Below, piece by piece: positions 856 through 23,445 of a DNA stretch of 32,000 nucleotides (positions within the stretch are counted from its first letter, which is position 1; each line of letters starts with the position of its first letter). The notes below the pieces were generated by a model. That model worked only from the letters and a program-made list of their open reading frames with translations, was not told where the DNA came from and made no database searches. Origin of the DNA: Ruminococcus albus 7 = DSM 20455 (GTDB taxonomy: Bacteria; Bacillota; Clostridia; Oscillospirales; Ruminococcaceae); NCBI RefSeq assembly GCF_000179635.2, contig NC_014833.1:840001-872000 (forward strand), written 5' to 3'. Made by a program: the position numbers and the translations under genes.

Positions 856-1878
856 CATGGTTATCCCTTTAACACACCACAGATAATTTACAATGCTGTC
901 CAAATAAACAGACCTCAAAAACCGGAAAATATAGTATAATAGTGACAGGAAACGAAAGGAGCTGTCGCTATGTCAAAAAGATTTCCGAAACCTGAGATCA
1001 CACTTGATGGGATATACTCAAAGTTCGCAGATGAAAGCTTTTGCAAGGATTTTCTGCTTGATATCCGCTTTGAAAAGGGTTTTGCCTGCCCGTTTTGCGG
1101 TGGCTCTGAGTACCGCAGGATAAGGTCACGCCATCTGCTGCGCTGCAAGTTCTGTAAAGCAGATATATCCGCCACAAACGGAACTTTTATGCACAGAACA
1201 CATATTCCGCTCAGACTGTGGATAGTCACCGCATTCCTCATTATGAGCAACAAATGCAGCGTTTCTGCTGTTACGCTGATGAGGTCTTTGGGGGTGACCT
1301 ACAAGACTGCATGGTACATCCTTCACCGCATCAGAAAAGCTATGAAATGCCGTGAAGAACGTTATTTGCTGGACGGAATCGTTGAACTTGATGACACGTA
1401 TCTCGGTGCTCCGACTCACGGTAAAAAGCGTGGCAGAGGAACTGAAAAAGTCAAGATGATAGTAGCTTTGTCAAAGAACGCAGCAGGAAATCCCGAGTAC
1501 GTTAAAATGAGCGATGTGCCGAATTTAAAGGGCATAACTGTGGGTAGATTTGCCAGGGATAATATCCGCGCAGGCTCGAAGATCGAGAGTGATAATGCTC
1601 GAAGTTACAAGAAACCGCTGGCACAGAAATACTTCCATGTTTTTGAGACATATGATCCGACAAGCGGTCAGCTGAATTGGATGCATAAAGTTATATCAAA
1701 CTTCAAAGCAATGATCATGGGAACTTACCACGGAAACGAAAAGATCCACACAGCGTTATATGCTGCCGAATACTGTTACAAATTCAACCGCCGAAAGCTC
1801 GGGAATAGTGCTTATTTACGGCTTTTAGCTGCTTTGGTGCAGTGATCTTACTTGTGGTGTGTTAAGGGGATAACCATT
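856..1878 (+). mobile_element. IS1595-family insertion sequence, copy 1 (1023 bp)
   Basis: Terminal inverted repeats CATGGTTATCCCTTTAACACACCACA (left) and TGTGGTGTGTTAAGGGGATAACCATT (right). An 8-bp direct target duplication ATATATTT sits at 848-855 and 1879-1886. There is a single transposase ORF. A near-identical copy lies at 9271-10293. Confidence 0.85.
970..1845 (+). CDS. IS1595-family (ISXO2-like) DDE transposase with N-terminal zinc ribbon
   Basis: 291-aa ORF. Zinc ribbon CPFCGGSEY...CKFC followed by TNGTFMHRTHIPLRLW, then VELDDTYLG and IESDNARSY acidic motifs typical of ISXO2-like DDE transposases. RBS AAAGGAG lies upstream of the ATG. Confidence 0.9.
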   Translation: MSKRFPKPEITLDGIYSKFADESFCKDFLLDIRFEKGFACPFCGGSEYRRIRSRHLLRCKFCKADISATNGTFMHRTHIPLRLWIVTAFLIMSNKCSVSAVTLMRSLGVTYKTAWYILHRIRKAMKCREERYLLDGIVELDDTYLGAPTHGKKRGRGTEKVKMIVALSKNAAGNPEYVKMSDVPNLKGITVGRFARDNIRAGSKIESDNARSYKKPLAQKYFHVFETYDPTSGQLNWMHKVISNFKAMIMGTYHGNEKIHTALYAAEYCYKFNRRKLGNSAYLRLLAALVQ

Positions 1879-2324
1879 ATATATTTTAATTTTTCCGGTA
1901 ACGTAATTATTTCAATGCTATCACTATCAGAAAATGCATTGGCACATATAGCAGTAACATTGATCTCGGTACCATCATAACATTTTATCTGACTAGGAAC
2001 CTCGACCTCTGTTTCAGAACCATAGTACTTTATAATGCCGATAGTACCGTCTTCCAGCATAGTATACTCATAATCGCCAAAAGTAAGTACTTCCGCACTT
2101 GACGAAATAACTGCATTGTCCACCACTACGTTAGGCAAAATTGCACCGCCGAATACTAATGTCAGCGACAGCAGACCTGCTACTATCTTCTTTTTGTTCA
2201 TTATGTCCTCCTAAATATTGTTATAAAATCAAACGACACCCATCTTTCAACCTATACGACTAAATGTGTCGTTTGATGGCAATTGTCTGTCCTTTCGACA
2301 TTATGTCAATTGACAGTTTTCACC

Positions 2325-3617
2325 TTATCTGGCAGTAAGGACAAATGATCTTCTGTCGATATCATAGGTATCCCATTTACCGTTGATTTTGGCACATATA
2401 ACTATCTCATACTTATGACCGCGATACAGACTTGGCGACATATACTCATTAGAATCGGTATAAGCCTGAACTTTCCACTTGCCTGCGATCTTTACAGCAA
2501 CGCCGTACTCTTCAGCATCAGAAACTCTTGTCCAGAACATACGGAATCGGCGTGAATTCAGATCATACTCCATTGATAACAGACTTGGATAATAGCCCCT
2601 TCCCTGGGCATCAGTGACCCTGAATTTAATGCCGTTATCCAGAGCATAATTCATCGCCTCAGATTTTTTGTGAACAGTAATTTTAAGTTTCGGCAACGGC
2701 TTATAGCAATCATTCTCGTAATCGTATTTATCAAATACATGGCTTCCTATTTCAACTACACTTGAAGGTATAACTGCACCTTGAAGTGCTGTACAGTTTC
2801 CAAACACACCATTACCCAATTCAGTTACTTTATCCGGTATAGTTATATCTTTAAGACTTGTGCATCCGCAAAAGATATTGCTTTCGATAGACTTTAAATT
2901 TTCTGATAAAACAACACTCTTTAATTCTGTACAATATTCAAATGCCGATGATTTCAAAGAAGTAACTTTGTCAGGTATAACTATCGATTTCAATGACGAG
3001 CAAAATCCGAATACTCTTTCATCGACAGTCTTTAGTTTTTTTGATAAAGTTATGCTTTCAAGAGATGAACAACCCAGAAAAGCTGCTTTTCCAATAGAAA
3101 CAACTCTGTCAGGTATAACGATCTCTTTCAAAGCTTCACAATCGATGAATGCACCCTCACCGATAGTTTTCAAGTTATTCGATAAAGTTATATTTTCAAG
3201 ATTATCGCAGTCAAAAAAGGCATAAACACCAATGGATGTCACGCTGTCAGGCAGATCGATATCTACAAGACCATTGCAATCAGCAAATGCTTGTTCTCCT
3301 ATGATCTCCACACCATCGGGTATAATTATTTTTTCGATTTTTCTGCCATGAAATGCATCATCACAAATGGCAGTAACATATTCATCATTTATCTCCTCCG
3401 GTATCTCGACCACAGTATCACGACCCATGTATCCTGTTATACCGATAGTACCATCTTCAAGCACAGTGTAATAAAAATCACCGTATCTGAATTCCTCAGT
3501 TCTTTCCGCACTTGCAGATATAACTGTACTGCTGTTAACTGCCATATCAGGTACAGCTGCACCGCCAAATACGAATGTCAGCGCCAGCAGACCCGCCGTG
3601 ATTTTCTTGTTATTCAT
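2325..3617 (-). CDS. BspA-type leucine-rich-repeat secreted surface protein with diverged C-terminal conserved module
   Basis: The likely start is ATG at 3617 (MNNKKITAGLLALTFVFGGAAVP signal peptide) behind RBS AGGAGGT. About 10 repeats of IxIPDxVxxIGxxAFxxCxxLxxI. The C-terminus RFRMFWTRVSDAEEYGVAVKIAGKWKVQ...INGKWDT is a diverged copy of the shared module. Confidence 0.85.
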   Translation of the reverse strand: MNNKKITAGLLALTFVFGGAAVPDMAVNSSTVISASAERTEEFRYGDFYYTVLEDGTIGITGYMGRDTVVEIPEEINDEYVTAICDDAFHGRKIEKIIIPDGVEIIGEQAFADCNGLVDIDLPDSVTSIGVYAFFDCDNLENITLSNNLKTIGEGAFIDCEALKEIVIPDRVVSIGKAAFLGCSSLESITLSKKLKTVDERVFGFCSSLKSIVIPDKVTSLKSSAFEYCTELKSVVLSENLKSIESNIFCGCTSLKDITIPDKVTELGNGVFGNCTALQGAVIPSSVVEIGSHVFDKYDYENDCYKPLPKLKITVHKKSEAMNYALDNGIKFRVTDAQGRGYYPSLLSMEYDLNSRRFRMFWTRVSDAEEYGVAVKIAGKWKVQAYTDSNEYMSPSLYRGHKYEIVICAKINGKWDTYDIDRRSFVLTAR

Positions 3618-3803
3618 TCCATTACCTCCTGATTTTCTAAACAGATAAAACAAACGACATAAGATATCCGCTTATCCATGAGCATATATGTGCTATCATC
3701 CGGATAAGTATGAAAAATTATGTCGTTCGATAATTATTATATATCTTTTTAAATTGTATGTCAACAGGTTGTTACAAATTACTTTACAGTAACCTGTTAC
3801 ATA

Positions 3804-4076
3804 TTACTTAACAGTAACAGTCACAGCGTTCTTGATAGCGTTTGCAGTATCCCACTTGCCGTTTACTCTGGCTGCAATTGCAACTTTGTAAGTCTTGCCG
3901 GGAGTCAAACTCTTTGGAGTAGTATATGAAGTGCCAGTAATGTTCTTATCCTGAACCTTCCACTTGCCTGCCAGATAAACAGCTACGCCGTATCTATCAG
4001 CACCTTCGACCTTGTCCCATGTGAATCTTACCTGATGGTATTTTTTTCTTGCTATATTATTTTTAATTGAAAACAA
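3804..4076 (-). pseudogene. Orphan copy of the ~85-aa C-terminal module (no signal peptide or catalytic/LRR part; only a TTG start)
   Basis: YHQVRFTWDKVEGADRYGVAVYLAGKWKVQ...KVAIAARVNGKWDTANAIKNAVTVTVK is highly similar to the C-termini of the GH9 (20219-20480) and GH11 (23460-23730) enzymes. The frame closes immediately upstream and no ATG is present. Confidence 0.6.
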
Positions 4077-4853
4077 TAATTGCCAAAGTTTCTTTTATGT
4101 TCATAGTTAATTGAAAGGATATGTGGTAATAAACAGTGGGGGAGGGGAGTCAATCTTCTTTTTCAGCATCTGTTCCTAAGAAGACAGAACATAAGCTCAG
4201 CATAGGCTTCTTTCTGTATTTCTGTATAGCACTTCTGATAGAAACGAGCCGCCAATTATCTATATTATAATCTTCCGGAAGGGGAGTGGGGTCATCAAAC
4301 TCATCCAGCATAGCTTCTTTATTAGGTTTGGTAGGTTCTTTCGGGATCGAAACCAGAACTTCGATTTCGTGAGGAAGATTTGTTTCATTTTAACCCAAGA
4401 GTCTGTCACATTAGCCAATGTGGTGGGCTCTTATTTTTTAGGAAACTCAAAGCAATTTTCTTTACCTGATGCAAACACTGCTTGATATATATTGCATGAA
4501 ATCTGGATTTAGTTTTGTGCAAGTATCCAAAGCTCACTATAATGGTGGTAAAGTGCTTGATGCGTCACCAAGATGGTGGTATAATGTAATCAAGAAGAAG
4601 ATGATGAAACCTATACGAATAAGGATGGATATAAAACGGAACTGCCGAGCAGCTATTATAATCCCGACCAGATTTTCAATAATAAGGAATATGCTACGTA
4701 CTATTGGGAAGCTATTAAGATTCGTTTTGAAATAGTTTAAATTTTCGTCCGAAGTACTAACCTGGAATAAAGCTTAAAATAGAATAAATTCAGTAATTGT
4801 AAATGCAGAATATGAGAACGTCGTGACGATACATAAGGTGAAATAAACTTACT

Positions 4854-5141
4854 ATGAGTGATATGAAAAACGTATATACCGGAGCCTTTGGCAAAGTGAA
4901 TTCTCCCAAGGAACAGTATCAGATAATGAATGAAAACTACAGCAAAATATGCCTGGAATTTGCTGGAATATGCCGTAGATACCGACTTATGCTAGATGAA
5001 AAGTTCAAGGAGATAGTTAGGCTTAGAGATGAAGTGATAAAGCATCAAAATACTATCTCTGCGCAAAATCGGCAGATAAGAAATCTGCAAAAGGAAAATT
5101 CTAAGTTAAAGAAAGCATTGCAAAAACAAAAAAAGAAATAA
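4854..5141 (+). CDS. Hypothetical small coiled-coil protein
   Basis: 95-aa ORF. The C-terminal half is heptad-like and K/E/Q-rich (RLRDEVIKHQNTISAQNRQIRNLQKENSKLKKALQKQKKK). No recognisable family. Confidence 0.4.
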   Translation: MSDMKNVYTGAFGKVNSPKEQYQIMNENYSKICLEFAGICRRYRLMLDEKFKEIVRLRDEVIKHQNTISAQNRQIRNLQKENSKLKKALQKQKKK

Positions 5142-5220
5142 ACGGAAAATCATAAAAAAATCTAAGATACAAAAACGTACCAGCTTATATTGGGCACCTT
5201 TTCTTCCTAGTGCGGATGAA

Positions 5221-5502
5221 ATGTATCCGCTTTACAACTGGGCACTGGAAAATCCTCAGTGGTGGATAACCGGATTTGATCCAAACTGGAAAAATAAGGT
5301 TGACTGTATTAACGGAATGGATTGGCCACTAATGAAAGAAAATCTGATTATGATTGGTTCTGTTGATTTGAGTCAGTTTTCTGATGAAGCAATTGATGAG
5401 ATAATGGAAAAAGTTAATGATTCAAATCAGGATGTGATTGTAGATAAAAATAATAAAACTATATGGATAGTATTCGGAAATATGATTGGGAGTAGGGTAT
5501 GA
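5221..5502 (+). CDS. Hypothetical small protein, translationally coupled to the downstream lipoprotein
   Basis: 93-aa ORF. Its stop overlaps the next start (ATGA at 5499-5502). It shares a VDLSQ(F/V)..E.I.D motif with the 6734-6982 product. Confidence 0.45.
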   Translation: MYPLYNWALENPQWWITGFDPNWKNKVDCINGMDWPLMKENLIMIGSVDLSQFSDEAIDEIMEKVNDSNQDVIVDKNNKTIWIVFGNMIGSRV

Positions 5503-6119
5503 AGATCAAAATAGCGTTAAGTATTTTGACTATAATAATACTTTGTTTTTCATCATGTGGTAATGTGTATGAGAATTTACATTCTGATATCGAAAATCAG
5601 AGCATTGAGTCCAATGAAGAAAGCAACTATACTGAAGATAATAATATCGGTAATGATCTTAAAACTCGAAAGATAACACATGGCTATAAACGTGTGATCG
5701 ATGAATATGCTGAAAAAGCAATGGCGTGTTTTGTTAGTAAAGATACAGAAGGTTTATTATCGTTGTTTTCAGATATGTCCAATGAAAACTATTCTCTTGG
5801 TGATGAAATAGATAGAGCCTATGATTTTCTGGGTGGAGATATAATTTCTTTTGGTGAAATAGAATCGCATACGGGAGGATCGACTTTTGGCGGCGGACAT
5901 ACGAGCCGACAGACAGGTACATCATATATATACGAAGTGAAAACGGATAAAGATGAATTTGAGATTTTTATTGGTTGTGTAATAATCAATGACGATGACA
6001 TATCTCAGGTTGGTATCCAGAATATAAAAATCAAGAATTCAAGCTTTGATATTAATGATCCTGATAAAGAAGAAAATATGGTATCGATTGGCGAATTTTT
6101 AGGCAGTTGGTATGGTTAA
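5499..6119 (+). CDS. Putative lipoprotein (paralog A)
   Basis: Signal peptide with lipobox-like LCFSSC|GN. Paralogous to 6141-6734 (GEIESHTGGSTFGGGHTSRQTG...IGCVIINDDDISQVGIQNIKI versus GEINHTFGGKTFGGGNVSRLTG...INCVMKYDDDNSEIGIQNINI). Confidence 0.7.
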   Translation: MKIKIALSILTIIILCFSSCGNVYENLHSDIENQSIESNEESNYTEDNNIGNDLKTRKITHGYKRVIDEYAEKAMACFVSKDTEGLLSLFSDMSNENYSLGDEIDRAYDFLGGDIISFGEIESHTGGSTFGGGHTSRQTGTSYIYEVKTDKDEFEIFIGCVIINDDDISQVGIQNIKIKNSSFDINDPDKEENMVSIGEFLGSWYG

Positions 6120-6140
6120 GCTTATTGGAGGATATCTATA

Positions 6141-6734
6141 ATGTACAAAATAAAACTTATGATAGTGCTTGTTTTATCATGTACGTTTCTTTATTCTTGT
6201 ACATCTGATATTAGCAGTATCCATGATGAGTCAGAAGAACTTAAAATCGCAGAAAGTTCTTTGGCTGAAAGATTCAACCCTCTTACCGATTATAAAAAAT
6301 ATGGAAAACAGATGGATGATTTTGCAGAAGATGTTGCGAATGGCTTTATAAACAAAGACTACGAAATGATAAAACAGAATTTCTGTCAGAGATCCCTTGA
6401 TACTTACGATCTGGATACGGATATAAATAATGTTTTTGAAAAGATCGGTTCTGATATATTATCATATGGAGAAATTAATCATACATTTGGAGGGAAAACA
6501 TTCGGCGGTGGAAATGTCAGCAGATTGACGGGTTCGGTTGAGATCGATGATGTTAAAACTGAAGATAATTCATATGTGATACATATAAACTGTGTAATGA
6601 AGTACGATGATGACAATTCAGAGATTGGTATACAAAATATCAACATAACTCCAAGTGATTGGAAGGCTCGTGAAGATCCGGAGCATGAGTATTTTTGGGA
6701 TATCGGCGAGGTATATGACAGTTGGAATTGGTGA
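6141..6734 (+). CDS. Putative lipoprotein (paralog B)
   Basis: Signal peptide with lipobox-like FLYSC|TS. RBS GGAGGA upstream. Paralog of 5499-6119. Confidence 0.7.
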   Translation: MYKIKLMIVLVLSCTFLYSCTSDISSIHDESEELKIAESSLAERFNPLTDYKKYGKQMDDFAEDVANGFINKDYEMIKQNFCQRSLDTYDLDTDINNVFEKIGSDILSYGEINHTFGGKTFGGGNVSRLTGSVEIDDVKTEDNSYVIHINCVMKYDDDNSEIGIQNINITPSDWKAREDPEHEYFWDIGEVYDSWNW

Positions 6735-6982
6735 TGCTTGATGTTTATAAATGGAGTGAAGGCTTATCAGAAGGAGATTTATTTAATCTGAATTATTATG
6801 GCCTTGCAAGAATATTTAAAGATTATGGTTGCTATGAAACTACCATAACATGGAAAAAGGGATCTAGATACCCCAATTTAAGTGGCTATGGTGTAGTTGA
6901 TTTATCTCAAGTGGATTTTGAAGGCATTTCCGATCCGATTGTGAATAGCACAACTATTTTACTTAATTCCCTAGTGGTCTAG
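6734..6982 (+). CDS. Hypothetical small protein
   Basis: The ATG at 6734 overlaps the TGA of the upstream lipoprotein gene (TGATG). Weakly related to the 5221-5502 product. Confidence 0.45.
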   Translation: MLDVYKWSEGLSEGDLFNLNYYGLARIFKDYGCYETTITWKKGSRYPNLSGYGVVDLSQVDFEGISDPIVNSTTILLNSLVV

Positions 6983-7374
6983 TTGTACTCGTTAACACGC
7001 AGCAGAGTTATGTACTCAAATCATTCACGTTTAATAACAATAGCTGAACGAAGCATAGCTCTTTTTGAGAAACCAGATCTGACGACTTTGATAGTTGATT
7101 CGGGCAACTCAGAAAGATCTGAGCTTTGAAAAAGTAGATCATAAAACCTCGCCTTTTCGATACAGAAGAAACGGTAAAATTACCTTGCATAATTTTGATA
7201 ACAGCAACTCCATTAGGTGTTTTTTCTTGCAATGATATAATTCAAGAATAATTGGCTGTTTTCTATAATTATATAGTGACTCATTGAAAATTATTAGTTC
7301 TGAAACTACGTGATTATATTGGATTTTAAAGCTTTGCTTGGAGCTATACAGATAGCTAGTGGAGGTGTTTATCA

Positions 7375-7914
7375 TTGAAAATCAATAAATTTTTGAATGC
7401 TTCAATATTTATTCTTTTAGGACTTGTTGTTTTTATTGCGTTGTTAAGCAAATATTTTGAACTATGCAGCAATAAAATCACTATGCTTTCTTTATGTGGG
7501 TATATATTATGTTTAGATTTGGTGCTATTAATTGCAAAATATATTATCTTAAGAAAAAAAAGATTTGCTATACTATCAGCTATTGGATGCTTGTTTTTGA
7601 TCTGCTGTGTTTTCATTGTCAATAATGATATAATAAATATTAAAGCAAGTTACAACGTTTATTCAACGGATAAATACTCGGTAATAGTAAGGTTAAATGA
7701 ATCTTTTATTTCTGGAAGATGTGATATATATATAAAAGAAAACAATATCATTATGAAAAAGGTTGGATATCCTTTAGGTGTTCCCCAAAAGTATGATCCT
7801 ATTGCAACAGAAAATTACAAGATAGATGATAATAAGTCTTCGATAATTCTTAAAATAAAATGTGATCCCAACAGAGATGAGTATGAACTTATTGAAATAC
7901 AAAGAGATAATTGA
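7375..7914 (+). CDS. Hypothetical membrane protein (3 predicted N-terminal TM helices)
   Basis: TTG start 7 nt after RBS GGAGGTG. Hydrophobic stretches FILLGLVVFIALL, LCGYILCLDLVLLIA and ILSAIGCLFLICCVFIV. Followed by a strong terminator. Confidence 0.55.
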   Translation: MKINKFLNASIFILLGLVVFIALLSKYFELCSNKITMLSLCGYILCLDLVLLIAKYIILRKKRFAILSAIGCLFLICCVFIVNNDIINIKASYNVYSTDKYSVIVRLNESFISGRCDIYIKENNIIMKKVGYPLGVPQKYDPIATENYKIDDNKSSIILKIKCDPNRDEYELIEIQRDN

Positions 7915-7932
7915 GTGAATAAAAATGAACTG

Positions 7933-7980
7933 AAATAACACTTATTCAAGAAATATTCTTGAATGAGTGTTATTTTGTTT
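7933..7980 (+). terminator. Rho-independent terminator of 7375-7914
   Basis: An ~18-bp stem AAATAACACTTATTCAAG / CTTGAATGAGTGTTATTT (one G-U pair) followed by TTTTGTTTT. Confidence 0.7.
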
Positions 7981-8079
7981 TCCACACCAATGCAGATGTT
8001 TTCCTATGTTTTCTCGTAAGCGTATAACCCCCCGCATCATAAAAGCAAACAGCCGGGCAGATAACACCCGGCTGTAACA

Positions 8080-8619
8080 TCATATTCTGGCTTTGATTTC
8101 TCCATTTCTCTTTGCGTCCATGTATATTTCTTTGAAATCAGCTTTGCTGTTCGGACCGAATATGATCGGCATAACAGATACAAGGCCATCGGAAATGATC
8201 GCATTTTTAAATGGCAGAAGCGCTGCATCAAGCAAAGTTGGCATCGGTGCATTTCTCAGCATTTCCTCCCAACTGCTGACAATGCCGTTTACAAGAAAAA
8301 CAGAATTGTCATCGATCGATATAAATACCGATCCCTTTTTCAAATGTCGCTCAATGATAAATCTGCCGGTGATGCACCCTTTCCAGCTTTTAAGTATCTC
8401 CATGTGTTATTCGGGCAGATCCGATCGCTCAAGATAATCATCAATGATCCATGTCCGTTCCCATAAAAAGTGGGCAACCTCCGCAGCATCCTGTGGGTCG
8501 ATCATTCCTTGCCCGAAATAATCTTCCTCAGGAAGTATATGATATTCTCTGTTCACATAGTCAAGCAGTGGAAAAAACAGTTCATAAAACAGCTTTGCAT
8601 CTTCATTACTAAGTTTCAT
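8080..8619 (-). pseudogene. IS66 passenger ORF of unknown function, read as one ~178-codon frame interrupted by an in-frame TAA (or as two ORFs of 70 and 107 aa)
   Basis: It lies inside the IS66 inverted repeats, downstream of tnpC. Its ATG (8619) overlaps the tnpC stop by 11 nt and follows GGAGGG. 8407-8619 and 8080-8403 are in the same frame, separated only by TAA-CAC (..SDLPE*HMEILKSW..). Confidence 0.45.
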
Positions 8620-9270
8620 TTTCTTCCCTCCATGGTAATAATATCGTTCCCGCAGGCTGTGAAAACAGCTCGGTCAGGTATTTCTCAGCATCAACACCGT
8701 TCGCCTGTGCAGTTGAAATGATCGAATACAGCGTTGCACTTGATCTGGCTCCGTTTGCTGTATTTGAAAACAGCCAATTTTTTCGGCCTAACGCAAACGG
8801 TCTTATTGCGTTTTCGGCTCTGTTGTTGTCGATAGGCACGTCTCCGTTTTCAAGAAACGTGTAAAGATATTTCCGTTCATTCAACGCATATCTTACTGCA
8901 TCTGTCAGCTTGCCCTTACCACTGACCTGAACATTTTCAAGCCACGCAAAAAACTCGTCAAGCAAAGGCTTTACCTTCACAAGGCGCTGTTTATATCTGT
9001 ATTCTGTGGAGCTGTCGGCAAGCAGATTTTCTTCGTGATATATCTTGTTGAAATATTCTACTGCCTTTGCCGCAACAGAAGTGCTGTGCAGCTTTTGGTC
9101 GTTCGGAAGAGCCTGAATAAAACCACGCCTTGCATGAGTCATACAGCCGCATCGCTTAGCACCCTCGACTGCATTGTAGGCATCGTATCCGTCACAGATA
9201 AGATAGCCGATAAATCCTTTCAGGAAATTCGAGGCGTGCTCACCCTTTCGTGTCGGCTGATAATCGAAAA

Positions 9271-10293
9271 CATGGTTATCCCTTTAACACACCACAGATA
9301 ATTTACAATGCTGTCCAAATAAACAGACCTCAAAAACCGAAAAATATTGTATAATAGTGACAGAAACCGAAGGGAGCTGTCGCTATGTCAAAAAGATTTC
9401 CGAAACCTGAGATCACACTTGATGGGATATACTCAAAGTTCGCAGATGAAAGCTTTTGCAAGGATTTTCTGCTTGATATCCGCTTTGAAAAGGGCTTTGC
9501 CTGTCCGTTTTGCGGTGGCTCTGAGTACCGCAGGATAAGGTCACGCCATCAGCTGCGCTGCAAGTTCTGTAAAGCAGATATATCCGCCACAAACGGAACT
9601 TTTATGCACAGAACACATATTCCGCTCAGACTGTGGATAGTCACCGCATTCCTCATTATGAGCAACAAATGCAGTGTTTCTGCTGTTACGCTGATGAGGT
9701 CTTTGGGGGTGACCTACAAGACTGCATGGTACATCCTTCATCGCATCAGAAAAGCTATGAAATGCCGTGAAGAACGCTATTTGCTTGACGGGATCGTTGA
9801 ACTTGATGACACGTATCTCGGTGCTCCGACTCACGGTAAAAAGCGTGGTAGAGGTACTGAAAAAGTCAAAATGATCGTAGCTTTATCAAAGAACTCAGCA
9901 GGAAATCCCGAGTACGTTAAAATGAGCGATGTGCCGAATTTAAAGGGTATAACTGTTGGTAGATTTGCCAGGGATAATATCCGCGCAGGCTCGAAGATCG
10001 AGAGTGATAATGCTCGAAGTTACAAGAAACCGTTGGCACAGAAATACTTCCATGTTTTTGAAACATATGATCCGACAAGCGGTCAGCTGAACTGGATGCA
10101 TAAAGTTATATCAAACTTCAAAGCAATGATCATGGGAACTTACCACGGAAACGAAAAGATCCACACAGCGTTATATGCTGCCGAATACTGCTACAAATTC
10201 AACCGTCGTAAGCTGGGAAACAGTGCGTATTTAAGGCTTTTGGCTGCTTTGGTGCAGTAATCTTACTTGTGGTGTGTTAAGGGGATAACCATA
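9271..10293 (+). mobile_element. IS1595-family insertion sequence, copy 2 (1023 bp), nested in IS66 tnpC
   Basis: Same inverted repeats as copy 1. 8-bp target duplication ATCGAAAA at 9263-9270 and 10294-10301. Confidence 0.85.
9385..10260 (+). CDS. IS1595-family (ISXO2-like) DDE transposase
   Basis: 291 aa. It differs from the copy-1 protein at only two residues (L56Q, A171S) in the supplied translations. Confidence 0.9.
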   Translation: MSKRFPKPEITLDGIYSKFADESFCKDFLLDIRFEKGFACPFCGGSEYRRIRSRHQLRCKFCKADISATNGTFMHRTHIPLRLWIVTAFLIMSNKCSVSAVTLMRSLGVTYKTAWYILHRIRKAMKCREERYLLDGIVELDDTYLGAPTHGKKRGRGTEKVKMIVALSKNSAGNPEYVKMSDVPNLKGITVGRFARDNIRAGSKIESDNARSYKKPLAQKYFHVFETYDPTSGQLNWMHKVISNFKAMIMGTYHGNEKIHTALYAAEYCYKFNRRKLGNSAYLRLLAALVQ

Positions 10294-11243
10294 ATCGAAA
10301 ATGATGATGCTCCTGTCATTCATTTTGCCGTTGCAGTAGACCCACATTCTTGATGTCGTGGTAGGCTTTCGGCCTTCCTCGTGAAGCACCTGAACGGTCG
10401 TTTCATCGGCATGGATCATCTGCCCTGCGATAAGCGTCTCATGCATTTTCTCCACAATCGGCAAACACCATTTTTCGGCAGCAGTGCCTACCCAATTAGA
10501 CATAGTCGCTTTGAGCAGAGGTATGTTTTTGGAATTAAAGTCCTTTTCCTGACGGTGCAGAGGTACTGACTTTGCATATTTTTCGTAGATGATATGAGCC
10601 AGAAGTTCGGGAGAGCAATAGCTTCCCGGGATCATAGCGTGAGGATATGGCGCACGGATGATATGACAAGGTTCGTCCCTTTCTTCGGGCTTTTCTCCGC
10701 ACTCGGGACACTTGTACTTATGTACTATATGCCTGCGGATATGATATTTTGGCGGCGTAAATATAAGTTCATCGTAAGCCTTTTCGGGAGTCAGTTCTTC
10801 CATTTCGGCGCCGCATATTTCGCATACCGGGTTGTCAATTTTGTGATGTTCTTCTTTTACAGGCAGATTGTTCATCCATTCATCGTGAGTGCGTTTTTTC
10901 TTGCGCTTGTGTTCGGGAACAGTAATTGTTTCGGCAGATTTAGCTGCGGATTTTTCTTCATTGTTTCCGAACATGGAAAGCTGAACACCGAACTCCTTTT
11001 CCATAACAACAGATGTCTGCTCTGTTTTTCTTCCGAATATCTGCTTTCTGAACCACGCTAACTGCTGATTGGCAAGTGCTAGTTCTTCCTTGAGAACAGC
11101 GTTTTCATTACGGAGCGATACAATTTCCGATGTCATATTTGGTTCGGACATAAAGCACCCCTCCGTTCGTTATGATACTTTAATGATACCACGAAAAGAG
11201 GGGCTTTTCAAGCACATATTCTGAATATTCGGTAAGTATTGCC

Positions 11244-11600
11244 TTAATACAGCGCCCCCGGCTTTCCCTCACGGATAGCCTTCGGCTGCTCTATTTTCAA
11301 GCCTTCCAGAAGCCAGCGAATTTGCTGAGATGTGAGCATTACTGCTTCGGTCTCACTGCGCGGCCACTGGAATCTTCCGTTGTCAAGGCGCTTGTACAAC
11401 AGCAGAAAACCATCGCCCTCCCACAGCAGACCTTTGATGCGGTCACAACGTCTGCCGCAGAACAAAAACAATGCTTTCGAGAACGGGTCAAGTCGAAGCT
11501 GAGCCTGAACGATAGTCGCAAGTCCGTCTATCCCGCGTCGAAGGTCGGTGTATCCCGTAACAAGATAGACCTGTGCGTCCGCTGCCAGATCATTCAGCAT
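11244..11600 (-). CDS. tnpB: IS66 Orf2 (TnpB) accessory protein
   Basis: 118 aa. YLVTGYTDLRRGIDGLATIV...LFLFCGRRCDRIKGLLWEGDGFLLLYKRLDNGRFQWP is the hallmark IS66 Orf2 sequence. Its start overlaps the tnpA stop. Confidence 0.85.
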   Translation of the reverse strand: MLNDLAADAQVYLVTGYTDLRRGIDGLATIVQAQLRLDPFSKALFLFCGRRCDRIKGLLWEGDGFLLLYKRLDNGRFQWPRSETEAVMLTSQQIRWLLEGLKIEQPKAIREGKPGALY

Positions 11601-11911
11601 AGCTCATGCACCAAAGCGGTCAGAGTGTCCGCAGATATATCTGCCGGAAGAGATATTTGAAGTCCGTTTTTCTCAATGCGGATATTTTCGTTTGAGCAAG
11701 GAACTGATACAGGAACGATGGTCGGAGAATTTTCGATATACTTTTCACGAACTTTTCTTAGGCGGTTGTAATACGTGTTTGGCTTGATCCCTTTTTCTTT
11801 GCACCATTCCCGGATCGTCAGACCGCTTGCCTGCTGTGCTTTGATCTGCGCAGACCATTCCTGAAGCTGCATTTCTTTTTTGATTGTTGTGATGGATGTT
11901 GTTTTGTCCAT
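11594..11911 (-). CDS. tnpA: IS66 Orf1 (TnpA) HTH accessory protein
   Basis: The likely start is ATG at 11911 (MDKTTSITTIKKEMQLQEW) after RBS GGAGG. Contains the helix-turn-helix-like GLTIREWCKEKGIKPNTYYNRLRKV. Confidence 0.75.
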   Translation of the reverse strand: MDKTTSITTIKKEMQLQEWSAQIKAQQASGLTIREWCKEKGIKPNTYYNRLRKVREKYIENSPTIVPVSVPCSNENIRIEKNGLQISLPADISADTLTALVHELC

Positions 11912-12132
11912 ACCTGTTACCTCCTTGTCTAATCGTCTCCAATGAACTCCATGGATCAATTTGGATTATTCAATTTACTTCATGGTGTTCCTTGGAGTTT
12001 ATTATACTTTATTAGACTTCGGTGGGGTAGGTGCTGGGGGTTATACGCTTACGTTTTCTCTATAAAAATCTTTCGTAAGAGTAAAATATTATGCGCCTTT
12101 CCCTCTAGAGGCAAAAATGGTATAATAGAGTC

Positions 12133-12571
12133 CAACGGCAGAGTTTCCGCAGATATATCTGCCGGAAGAGATATTTGAAGTCCGTTTTTCTCAATGCGGA
12201 TATTTTCGTTTGAGCAAGGAACTGATACAGGAACGATGGTCGGAGAATTCTCGATATACTGTTCGCGGACTTTTCTTAAGCGGTTGTAATACGTGTTAGG
12301 CTTGATCCCATTTTCTGCGCACCATTCTCTGACCGTCAGTCCGCTCGCCTGCTGCGCTTCGATCTGTGCAGACCATTCCTGCAGCTGCATTTCTTTTTTG
12401 ATTGTTGTGATGGATGTTGTTTTGTCCATACCTGTTACCTTCTTGTCTAATCGACTCCAATGAACTCCATGGATCAATTTGGATTATTCGATTTACTTCA
12501 TGGTGTTCCTTGGAGTTTATTATACTTTATTAGACATTGGTGAGCTAGGTGCGGAGGGGTTTGATGCTTAC
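12133..12571 (-). mobile_element. Truncated left end of a second, related IS66-family element (inverted repeat plus 5' part of tnpA only)
   Basis: The terminal sequence GTAAGCATCAAACCCC (reverse complement ends at 12571) is related to the IS66 inverted repeat. The tnpA' frame (start about 12429) closely parallels 11594-11911, with several substitutions, up to ...ISLPADISAETL. Homology then stops near 12133. Confidence 0.7.
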
Positions 12572-12607
12572 GGAATTACTTCAAAACTATAACTCATAAT
12601 ATAAAGC

Positions 12608-12641
12608 AACAGCACTGCGCCCAAAATGACGTAGTGCTGTT
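12608..12641 (-). terminator. Hairpin downstream of the decayed HATPase_c_4 gene (probable terminator)
   Basis: A 9-bp stem AACAGCACT / AGTGCTGTT with a 16-nt loop, located just after the original stop at 12667. The T-tract is weak. Confidence 0.4.
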
Positions 12642-12666
12642 ATATTACTAGGTCTTAAATTAGCCG

Positions 12667-13593
12667 TTAATTGTGATTCTTGTCAACAATCCATTTTCCA
12701 TTTCGGGCGCTTCCGTTACGATGTATCCGATTTGCTTCTTTGAGTTGTTTGATCGCATTCTCAGTTTGCTTTTTAGATATATTCAAGAGATCTTACAGTT
12801 CTTTTACTGTGATTTCCGGATTATTAGCAATCGCTGAAAACACACGCTCTATTCTCTCAGCGATTTCATCGCCTTTTTTATCTCCTTTTTCAGAAAGGCA
12901 ATAATTCAAGCTTTTCAGGGTTAAGAAGAAACCGCCGTGTTCGGAAACAAACTCAGGCTGCAGATCATCAGAATACTTATATTGAGCCTTATATTCCTTG
13001 ATGATTTTCTTGATACCACTGCCCCTGCGCTCCATAAAATGAAGCCGTGAAAATATATCTGCTATGATAGGATTACGTCTTTGAGACGGTATCTGCATCA
13101 AATCTCTATCCTGAACATTGATGCCGTCAAACATTCCGCCGGGGGAGTAGATCTCAAGTCTGTCATCGAACATATCAATATGCACTTCACTTCCGACTAC
13201 TAGGTAGTCCCTGTGTATCAGAGCATTCACAATACCTTCCTCAACTGCTCTTTCTAGGTAGTCGGGTAGCTCTATTCTCTGGTCGGGAGCTTTGAACCAT
13301 CCATTATGCGAATTGCGTTTAACAAAAGCTTCTCCTTCTTCAAGGAGTGTTATGAGACTACCGGTATATTCAGCATCATCAAGAGTGTCCTGCAAACCTG
13401 AAGCCTTAGTCAGTCCATTCCAACGTGTACAGAACAGGCGGGACTGGTAAATCGGGCAGTAATCCGCAAGCAAAGCTCCTGCATTAGTTAGTTTATCATC
13501 GCCATCAATAAGACCGAATGAAGCGTAGTCACTGTCCTGAAAATCAAGGTGTGCTCTGCTGTAATATGTGGAGATCAGTTTGGTGAAAGACAT
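12667..13593 (-). pseudogene. Schlafen/AlbA_2-associated HATPase_c_4-type putative regulator (often annotated RecG-like), N-terminally truncated and carrying an in-frame TAA
   Basis: IVNALIHRDYLVVGSEVHIDMFDDRLEIYSPGG...QRRNPIIADIFSRLHFMERRGSGIKKI is typical of HATPase_c_4. The frame continues through TAA at 12793-12795 into a wHTH-like tail DLLNISKKQTENAIKQLKEANRIHRNGSARNGKWIV (stop at 12667). The AlbA_2-type N-terminal domain is missing, replaced at 13594 by IS1182-like sequence. Confidence 0.7.
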
Positions 13594-23303: not shown

Positions 23304-23445
23304 ATGGCTATCCCCTTAACACACTGCACGCAAAATCACTGCACCAAAGCAGTCGATAGCCTTAAATACGCACTGTTTCCAAGTTTACAGCAGTTGGATC
23401 AGTAGCAGTATTCGGCAACATATAACGCTGTGTGGATCTTTTCGC
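23304..23445 (-). mobile_element. Truncated, diverged third IS1595-family copy (right-end ~140 bp only, inverted orientation)
   Basis: ATGGCTATCCCCTTAACACACTGCACG...CACTGCACCAAAGCAG...AGCAGTATTCGGCAACATATAACGCTGTGTGGATCTTTTCG aligns by eye (mostly matching, with scattered mismatches) to the reverse complement of 10141-10293. Homology ends 11 bp before the xylanase stop codon. Confidence 0.75.

What the first reader, a model, noticed from the sequence alone, without database searches (positions are those of the whole stretch)
8008..12060. IS-within-IS: an IS1595-family element nested in tnpC of an IS66 element, with both target duplications preserved
The IS66 element has perfect 17-bp inverted repeats and an 8-bp GTTTTCTC duplication. 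Its tnpC is cut by the 1023-bp IS1595 copy, which is flanked by ATCGAAAA duplications, and in silico excision restores the tnpC frame exactly (IIIFDY|QPTRKGEH). This gives a clear relative order of events (IS66 first, IS1595 later). It also indicates that the IS66 copy is now non-autonomous.
Basis: seen in the sequence. Interest (0 to 1): 0.45.

Follow-up and report, generated by a model that had tools for sequence, protein, structure and literature searches.

The report
One jumping gene inside another
A 1-kb IS1595-family insertion sequence has landed inside the transposase gene of a 3-kb IS66-family insertion sequence in a Ruminococcus albus-type genome; this is a clean but ordinary case of nested mobile elements.

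Summary
An IS66-family element (8016..12052, genes on the minus strand) has perfect 17-bp terminal inverted repeats and an 8-bp GTTTTCTC target duplication. Its tnpC is split after codon 296 by a 1023-bp IS1595-family element (9271..10293) flanked by ATCGAAAA.

Removing the insert plus one repeat gives a 3006-bp IS66. Its 503-aa TnpC is identical, residue for residue, to IS66 transposases annotated in Ruminococcus albus 7. The DNA aligns without gaps to uninterrupted copies in metagenomes (99.9% and 96% identity). The IS1595 element is a widespread, apparently active IS:
- a second copy in the window splits an LRR surface-protein gene;
- its end sits next to more than 50 different flanks in metagenomes.

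- The IS66 carries a fourth gene, a 179-codon passenger of unknown function. Here it is also broken, by a GAA-to-TAA nonsense codon.
- Remnants of two other IS66-type elements lie 14 bp to the right.
- The order of events at this site is not strictly proven. Intact identical TnpC copies exist, at least in R. albus 7, so the composite could have been moved in trans.

Verdict: real, well supported and routine. Low interest.

The parts
8008..8015 (.). Left copy of the 8-bp target-site duplication GTTTTCTC made by the IS66 insertion
   Evidence: Only two occurrences in the window, directly abutting the IS66 ends
8016..12052 (-). IS66-family element, 4037 bp as found and 3006 bp without the IS1595 insert. 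Gene order on the minus strand is tnpA-tnpB-tnpC-orf179.
   Evidence: After excision it aligns gap-free over 3006 bp to L150 (99.87%) and to L089-L091 and L093 (96%); L092 aligns over 2919 bp
8016..8032 (.). IS66 terminal inverted repeat at the tnpC-distal end, GTAAGCGTATAACCCCC
   Evidence: 17/17 complementary to 12036-12052
8049..8075 (-). Terminator-like hairpin after the passenger gene, just inside the IS66 end
   Evidence: 11-bp stem with 7 GC pairs and a T-rich tail; a consensus match only
8080..8619 (-). Passenger gene orf179, helical N-domain plus beta-barrel, function unknown. It is a pseudogene here: codon 71 is TAA (8407-8409) where relatives have GAA. Its ATG overlaps the tnpC end by 11 nt.
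   Evidence: About 90 homologs of 178-184 aa. E71 is intact in L001 and L006, in L089-L093 and in L151. The model has pLDDT 96.
8609..9270 (-). tnpC 3' segment, roughly codons 295-503 plus the stop codon; the 8-bp duplication makes the exact split arbitrary
   Evidence: Joined to 10302..11151 it gives the 503-aa TnpC. PF03050 covers residues 177-459.
9263..9270 (.). Left copy of the 8-bp duplication ATCGAAAA made by the IS1595 insertion (tnpC sequence)
9271..10293 (+). IS1595-family insertion sequence, 1023 bp, in the opposite orientation to tnpC
   Evidence: The same 1023-bp length and 8-bp DR are seen in copy 2 and in L114.
9272..9301 (.). IS1595 left inverted repeat
   Evidence: 27/30 complementary to 10263-10292
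9385..10260 (+). IS1595-family transposase, 291 aa, apparently intact (N-terminal zinc ribbon plus DDE domain)
   Evidence: PF12762 1.1e-21 and PF12760 1.7e-10. NF033547 163 bits against a cutoff of 75, covering 1-215 of 215 profile positions.
10263..10292 (.). IS1595 right inverted repeat
10294..10301 (.). Right copy of the ATCGAAAA duplication
10294..11151 (-). tnpC 5' segment. As found, it reads through into the IS1595 end and stops at 10231, giving a 306-aa truncated product.
11244..11600 (-). tnpB (IS66 Orf2-like), 118 aa, intact
   Evidence: PF05717 1.4e-40; NF033819 122 bits against a cutoff of 50
11594..11911 (-). tnpA, 105 aa from the ATG preceded by AAGGAGGT; the open frame extends to a TTG at 11959
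   Evidence: NF047593 54 bits against a cutoff of 28. The exact 105-aa product is on 20 metagenome contigs.
12036..12052 (.). IS66 terminal inverted repeat at the tnpA-proximal end
12053..12060 (.). Right copy of the GTTTTCTC duplication

Best explanation
Two ordinary DDE-transposase insertion events are nested.

1. A four-gene IS66-family element (3006 bp; tnpA, tnpB, tnpC and a 179-codon passenger gene) inserted into an intergenic site. The site lies 33 bp after the terminator of the upstream ORF. Staggered cleavage and repair duplicated 8 bp, GTTTTCTC.
2. A 1023-bp IS1595-family element that is multicopy in this genome inserted into tnpC of that IS66 lineage, after codon 296. It duplicated 8 bp of tnpC, ATCGAAAA.

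The insertion cuts the DDE_Tnp_IS66 catalytic domain (residues 177-459) in two. This IS66 copy therefore cannot make its own transposase. It still has perfect ends and intact tnpA and tnpB, so in principle it remains mobilisable in trans by identical TnpC from intact copies. Its passenger gene is independently dead through an E71 nonsense codon.

Shown: the coordinates, repeats, family memberships, exact restoration, and the existence of uninterrupted near-identical copies. Inferred: the cut-and-repair mechanism behind the duplications, the loss of autonomy, and the possibility of trans-mobilisation.
For: - Repeats and duplications are at the exact register.
- Excision gives a 3006-bp element with a 503-aa TnpC.
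- All four transposition proteins pass curated Pfam or NCBIfam thresholds. TnpA passes the NCBIfam model only; its Pfam HTH_Tnp_1 hit is below cutoff.
- The restored TnpC is exactly P0213, 'IS66 family transposase [Ruminococcus albus]', with four accessions from strain 7.
- Uninterrupted 3006-bp copies exist: L150 with 4 mismatches, 0 gaps and the same IRs; L151 at 99.86%; L089-L091 and L093 at 96% with no gaps. L093 carries its own 8-bp DR, GACGAAAA.
- IS1595 mobility: copy 2 at 856..1878 (96.7% identity) has DR ATATATTT, and removing it restores an LRR-protein ORF of at least 393 aa. There are 53 metagenome loci with the same end against more than 50 different AT-rich flanks, and one complete 1023-bp copy with DR TTCTTAAA.
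- Independent assembly support for one junction: a whole 6676-bp draft contig, JHYT01000096.1, is 100% identical to window 1678..8353. It spans the left GTTTTCTC and IS66 junction.
Against: - No empty site was found for either insertion. The 30-mer for the IS66 empty site had 0 hits in metagenome contigs.
- The two internal IS1595/tnpC junctions have no independent support. None of the 53 metagenome IS1595 ends has the tnpC flank, and the truncated 306-aa product is not on record elsewhere.
- Whether the IS66 reached this site before or after being hit by IS1595 cannot be decided.
- Catalytic residues were not mapped individually. Loss of function is inferred from bisection of the Pfam domain.
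Confidence: 0.93

Rival explanations
1. Same nested structure, but a different order of events at this locus. IS1595 hit an IS66 copy somewhere else. The 4037-bp composite, with perfect IS66 ends and tnpA and tnpB intact, was then mobilised in trans to the present site by TnpC from an intact copy, creating the GTTTTCTC duplication afterwards.
For: - Identical 503-aa TnpC is annotated at least four times in R. albus 7.
- The IS66 ends here are perfect.
- tnpA and tnpB are intact.
- Internally deleted IS66 derivatives persist in relatives: L080 keeps positions 11-479 and 2258-3006. Non-autonomous forms therefore exist in the lineage.
Against: - No second copy of the composite was seen. None of the 53 IS1595 ends in metagenomes has the tnpC flank.
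- It requires an extra event, so it is less parsimonious.
- Whether intact copies exist in this particular genome was not shown.
Confidence: 0.1
2. Assembly artefact. The IS1595 sequence was joined into tnpC by mis-assembly of multicopy repeats, so no such nested element exists in the cell.
For: - Both elements are multicopy repeats that break short-read assemblies. The draft contig L079 ends inside IS1595 copy 2 and inside the IS66.
- Most metagenome hits lie at contig ends.
Against: - A mis-join would not create an exact 8-bp duplication of tnpC sequence at both IS1595 ends, in the same register as in two independent copies.
- A mis-join would not leave a tnpC that is restored to the exact known protein on removal of precisely element plus one repeat.
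Confidence: 0.02

Closest known systems
IS66 family insertion sequences (IS66 of Agrobacterium Ti plasmids, IS679, ISRm14 and similar)
   Same: - tnpA-tnpB-tnpC organisation with overlapping genes.
- TnpC with zinc-finger and DDE_Tnp_IS66 domains.
- Terminal IRs starting GTAAGCG.
- 8-bp target duplication. The 8-nt DR for IS66-family copies is also reported in PMC10017437; the typical end sequence is from my own knowledge of ISfinder.
   Different: It carries a fourth, translationally coupled 179-codon gene after tnpC, which makes it 3006 bp long. Close relatives carry a YokU-like 102-aa gene or nothing at that position. This copy is interrupted, and its passenger gene is a pseudogene.
IS1595 family insertion sequences (ISXO2-like transposases)
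   Same: A single gene of about 290 aa with an N-terminal zinc ribbon and a DDE_Tnp_IS1595 domain, a length of about 1 kb, imperfect terminal IRs, an 8-bp duplication and AT-rich targets.
   Different: Nothing notable. The subgroup was not determined. A possible DDHK-type motif was only read by eye and not tested.
Nested IS insertions and non-autonomous IS derivatives in IS-rich genomes
   Same: One IS disrupts the transposase gene of another. Both duplications are preserved, so the element order can be read off. This is a commonplace pattern (my own knowledge).
   Different: Nothing in kind. The only extra here is that intact identical TnpC genes are annotated in R. albus 7, so trans-complementation is plausible.
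Transporter IS (tIS): IS elements carrying passenger genes
   Same: The IS66 element carries a non-transposase gene between tnpC and the IR, and the cargo varies among close relatives.
   Different: The passenger has no recognisable resistance, regulatory or toxin-antitoxin domain, and there are no Pfam, NCBIfam, PADLOC or PHROG hits. Free-standing homologs also exist outside any IS.

Membership tests
IS66 family | TnpC transposase with a DDE_Tnp_IS66 domain | tested here: met
   Restored TnpC: PF03050 3.6e-89 over residues 177-459; NF033517 385.7 bits against a cutoff of 180
IS66 family | Accessory TnpB (IS66 Orf2-like) upstream of tnpC | tested here: met
   PF05717 137.7 bits; NF033819 122.1 bits against a cutoff of 50
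IS66 family | Accessory TnpA with a helix-turn-helix | tested here: met
   NF047593 54.4 bits against a cutoff of 28. The Pfam HTH_Tnp_1 hit is below cutoff, 21.8 against 24.1.
IS66 family | 8-bp target-site duplication | tested here: met
   GTTTTCTC in the window; GACGAAAA around L093
IS66 family | Terminal inverted repeats of about 15-30 bp starting GTAAGC | tested here: met
   GTAAGCGTATAACCCCC, 17/17. That this is the family-typical end is from memory of ISfinder.
IS66 family | Demonstrated transposition | not testable with these tools
   Indirect evidence only: near-identical copies lie in different flanks (L150, L151, L089-L093)
IS1595 family | Single transposase with a DDE_Tnp_IS1595 (ISXO2-like) domain | tested here: met
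   PF12762 77.9 bits; NF033547 163 bits against a cutoff of 75, full-length match
IS1595 family | N-terminal zinc-ribbon domain | tested here: met
   PF12760 41.1 bits against a cutoff of 25.4, residues 21-64
IS1595 family | 8-bp target duplication and terminal IRs on an element of about 1 kb | tested here: met
   ATCGAAAA, ATATATTT and TTCTTAAA around three 1023-bp copies; IRs 27/30
IS1595 family | Subgroup-defining catalytic motif (DDNK, DDEK, DDHK and so on) | not tested
   Read by eye only; no alignment to reference members was made

The most novel reading that the evidence does not exclude
The 179-aa protein encoded after tnpC is a previously undescribed functional module of a rumen-Clostridia IS66 clade, not inert cargo. 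Its properties:
- a helical N-domain plus an OB-like beta-barrel, with AF2 pLDDT 96;
- no significant match in Pfam, NCBIfam, PADLOC, PHROGs, PDB or BFVD;
- a start codon that overlaps the tnpC stop.

It could be, for example, a nucleic-acid-binding accessory factor or a host-interaction factor that occupies a swappable 'slot' shared with a YokU-like alternative.

Evidence that lowers this reading:
- The nonsense allele is present in at least two near-identical copies at different flanks, the window and L150.
- Close relatives lack the gene.
- Free-standing homologs exist.
Probability: 0.15. Interest if true: 0.45.

Novelty: new member of a known kind. Interest (0 to 1): 0.15.

Why it matters
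It matters little beyond annotation. It documents that the IS1595-family element was recently active in this Ruminococcus albus-type genome: two full copies in 32 kb, each disrupting a gene, one of them another IS. It shows one way IS66 copies become non-autonomous. It also flags that the split 'IS66 transposase' fragments and the two small ORFs at 8080-8619 should be annotated as pseudogenes of one element. The only item with some wider interest is the uncharacterised, well-folded 179-aa passenger family that alternates with a YokU-like gene in this IS66 clade.

Tried and rejected
- Plasmid origin: megablast of 7000-13500 against PLSDB gave no match.
- Structured RNA in or around the elements: Rfam at gathering threshold on 7000-13500 gave nothing.
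- Empty IS66 target site: the 30-mer TTTTCCTATGTTTTCTCTATAAAAATCTTT had 0 hits in metagenome contigs.
- Exact-product look-ups that found nothing: TnpB, the IS1595 transposase of copy 1, the truncated 306-aa TnpC and orf107.
- Passenger gene as a two-gene toxin-antitoxin pair (orf70 plus orf107): rejected. Homologs are single proteins of 178-184 aa, and the split is a TAA at codon 71.
- Passenger function:
  - no Pfam, NCBIfam, PADLOC or PHROG hit;
  - the PDB profile search gave only a weak PH0355 hit, E = 0.016;
  - Foldseek against PDB and BFVD gave only weak OB/S1-fold matches, E at least 0.009 and TM about 0.25.
- The 12075..12571 block as a MITE with its own duplication: rejected. The flanks AATCTTTC and GGAATTAC do not match.
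- Literature searches for IS66 passenger genes and for IS66 or IS1595 in Ruminococcus returned nothing specific. The Siguier 2014 review was not held.
Full report
**1. Check of the observation**

The region was read directly and the motifs located by script.
- GTTTTCTC occurs only at 8008 and 12053.
- The 17-mer GTAAGCGTATAACCCCC is at 8016, and its exact reverse complement is at 12036.
- ATCGAAAA is at 9263 and 10294, with one unrelated copy at 5589.
- The repeat finder independently reports the IS66 arms (8015-8036 and 12032-12053, 95%) and the inner element's arms (9272-9301 and 10263-10292, 30 nt, 90%).

Removing 9271..10301 yields a 3006-bp element. On the minus strand it encodes, in order:
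- TnpA;
- TnpB, 118 aa;
- a single 503-aa TnpC containing ...IIIFDYQPTRKGEH...;
- two further small ORFs of 70 and 107 aa.

**2. Family assignment**

- Against Pfam, TnpB hits TnpB_IS66 (1.4e-40).
- The restored TnpC hits DDE_Tnp_IS66 (3.6e-89, residues 177-459), plus zf-IS66 and LZ_Tnp_IS66.
- The 291-aa protein of the inner element hits DDE_Tnp_IS1595 and Zn_ribbon_IS1595.
- NCBIfam equivalog models for IS66 TnpA, TnpB and the transposase, and for the IS1595 transposase, are all passed well above cutoff.
- The IS1595 insertion falls after TnpC residue 296, in the middle of the catalytic domain.
- As found, the 5' part reads into the IS1595 end and terminates as a 306-aa product.

**3. Independent validation from other sequences**

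- A scan of one genome per species found 78 loci with relatives of the restored TnpC. Nearly all are in Ruminococcus and other Oscillospiraceae from rumen and gut. The best is 95% identical over all 503 residues, in R. albus AR67.
- A protein search found uninterrupted 503-aa relatives at 97% identity.
- An exact look-up showed that the restored 503-aa sequence itself is on record as 'IS66 family transposase [Ruminococcus albus]'. It has four accessions from strain 7: ADU22751.1, ADU23317.1, ADU23844.1 and ADU24351.1.
- At DNA level the restored 3006 bp align end to end without a gap:
  - to L150, with 4 mismatches and the same perfect IRs;
  - to L151, 99.86% over the 2878 bp present;
  - to L089-L091 and L093, 96%. 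L093 is flanked by its own 8-bp duplication, GACGAAAA.

The in-silico excision therefore recreates a real, known element exactly.

**4. The IS1595 element is a mobile, multicopy IS**

- The window holds a second full copy at 856..1878 (96.7% identity), also with an open 291-codon transposase gene. It also holds a 141-bp right-end remnant at 23304-23444.
- Copy 2 is flanked by ATATATTT. Its removal fuses two fragments into an LRR/BspA-like surface-protein ORF of at least 393 aa on the minus strand (LRR_5 annotation of the neighbour).
- A metagenome scan for the 24-bp left end returned 53 loci. Most are at contig ends, with more than 50 different AT-rich flanks. One complete copy is 1023 bp long and bracketed by TTCTTAAA.
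- These copies settle the element boundary, which this copy alone leaves ambiguous by up to 3 bp.
- None of these ends abuts tnpC sequence, so the nested arrangement was not seen elsewhere.

**5.

(a) The IS66 is 3006 bp because it has a fourth gene.
- The '70-aa' and '107-aa' ORFs are in one frame. They are separated only by TAA (8407-8409) and one codon.
- About 90 homologs are single proteins of 178-184 aa. R. albus AR67 and KH2T6 have GAA (Glu) at that codon.
- This copy therefore carries a second inactivating lesion.
- The same TAA is present in the uninterrupted copy L150, while L151 has GAA. The nonsense allele therefore exists in at least two copies at different flanks.

(b) The gene family has no match in Pfam, NCBIfam, PADLOC or PHROGs.
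- An AlphaFold model built from 55 homologs is very confident (pLDDT 96, pTM 0.90). It shows four helices followed by a beta-barrel.
- Foldseek finds only weak OB/S1-fold similarities in PDB and BFVD, with best E 0.009-0.01 and TM about 0.25.
- The gene start overlaps the tnpC stop by 11 nt.
- Among relatives with enough downstream sequence, the position after tnpC holds this gene (about 11 loci), a 102-aa YokU-like zinc-ribbon gene (about 6 loci; PF14122 E = 1e-4, below cutoff), or nothing.
- A homolog at 54% identity (P0077) sits next to folC and a RelB/YafQ pair with no IS nearby.
- R. albus AR67 has an internally deleted mini-IS66 that keeps the gene.

(c) Remnants of other IS66-type elements lie 14 bp to the right of the IS66.
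- 12075-12133 is the terminal 59 bp or so of a different IS66-type element. The same sequence forms both ends of the element in L015 and the left ends in L014, L029 and L075.
- It abuts 12139-12571, the left end and truncated tnpA of a 92.8%-identical IS66 relative.
- No duplication surrounds this composite.

**6. Context**

- The window is chromosomal DNA of a cellulolytic Ruminococcus, with GH9, Cel124-dockerin and GH11 genes.
- Window 1678..8353 is 100% identical to the whole draft contig JHYT01000096.1 of GCA_000621285.1. That contig ends inside IS1595 copy 2 and inside the IS66. It independently confirms the left IS66 junction, and it shows that both elements behave as assembly-breaking repeats.
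- The IS66 sits in an intergenic spot, 33 bp after a strong terminator hairpin at 7933-7975.

**7. Mechanism and order of events**

- Both families are DDE transposons that make 8-bp staggered cuts, which explains the two duplications. This rests on established knowledge of the families; an 8-nt DR for IS66-family copies is also reported in PMC10017437.
- The IS1595 duplication consists of tnpC codons, so the IS66 element necessarily existed first.
- Whether it was already at this site is not determinable. It keeps perfect ends and intact tnpA and tnpB, and identical TnpC is encoded elsewhere, at least in R. albus 7. The composite could therefore have been moved in trans. I rate this rival at about 0.1.
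- Mis-assembly is very unlikely, given the exact duplications and exact restoration.

**8. Novelty and verdict**

Nested ISs, IS66 and IS1595 are all well known, and the proteins are already annotated as such in R. albus genomes. This is a textbook-clean instance of no particular surprise. The only mildly interesting by-product is the uncharacterised passenger family in this IS66 clade.

Noticed in passing
window 8080-8619 (-): The two small ORFs downstream of tnpC are one 179-codon passenger gene with a GAA-to-TAA nonsense mutation at codon 71 (8407-8409). The family has about 90 homologs of 178-184 aa and no hit in any profile library. Its AF2 model is very confident (pLDDT 96) and has only weak OB-fold similarity. 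The same nonsense allele is in the uninterrupted copy L150.
   Followed up: yes
L003 5482-5790; also L004, L005, L007, L021, L030: Close IS66 relatives carry a different passenger at the same position after tnpC: a 102-aa Cys-rich YokU-like protein (PF14122, E = 1e-4, below cutoff). Other relatives carry nothing there. This suggests a variable cargo slot in this IS66 clade.
   Followed up: partly
window 856-1878 (+): A second full IS1595 copy, 96.7% identical, also with an open 291-codon transposase gene, is flanked by ATATATTT. It splits an LRR_5/BspA-like surface-protein gene on the minus strand, and excision restores an ORF of at least 393 aa that runs off the window start.
   Followed up: yes
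window 23304-23444 (-): A 141-bp remnant of the IS1595 right end (86.5% identity) lies between the Cel124-dockerin gene and the GH11 gene.
   Followed up: no
window 12075-12571: An IS66 'graveyard' lies 14 bp from the full IS66. It consists of the terminal 59 bp or so of a different IS66-type element (the same end as in L014, L015 and L029), joined to the left end and truncated tnpA of a 92.8%-identical IS66 relative. No target duplication surrounds the block.
   Followed up: partly
window 8016-8032 versus 12036-12052; L089-L093; window 12555-12571: The tnpA-proximal IR of this IS66 copy (GTAAGCGTATAACCCCC) is a perfect match to the other end. The 96%-identical copies and the neighbouring truncated relative instead have GTAAGCATCAAACCC at that end. 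The perfect IRs are therefore a feature of the R. albus sub-lineage (also seen in L150).
   Followed up: partly
L080 5373-6603 (R. albus AR67, FOKQ01000005.1): An internally deleted mini-IS66 joins positions 11-479 to 2258-3006. It lacks tnpB and most of tnpC but keeps an intact 179-aa passenger gene.
   Followed up: partly
L081-L088: A free-standing homolog of the passenger protein (P0077, 182 aa, 54% identity) is followed by a conserved 62-aa ORF. It lies between folC and a RelB/YafQ toxin-antitoxin pair, with no transposase nearby.
   Followed up: no
window 1678-8353: This stretch is 100% identical to the entire draft contig JHYT01000096.1 (GCA_000621285.1). The contig ends fall inside IS1595 copy 2 and 338 bp into the IS66, which shows that these ISs fragment the short-read assembly.
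   Followed up: yes
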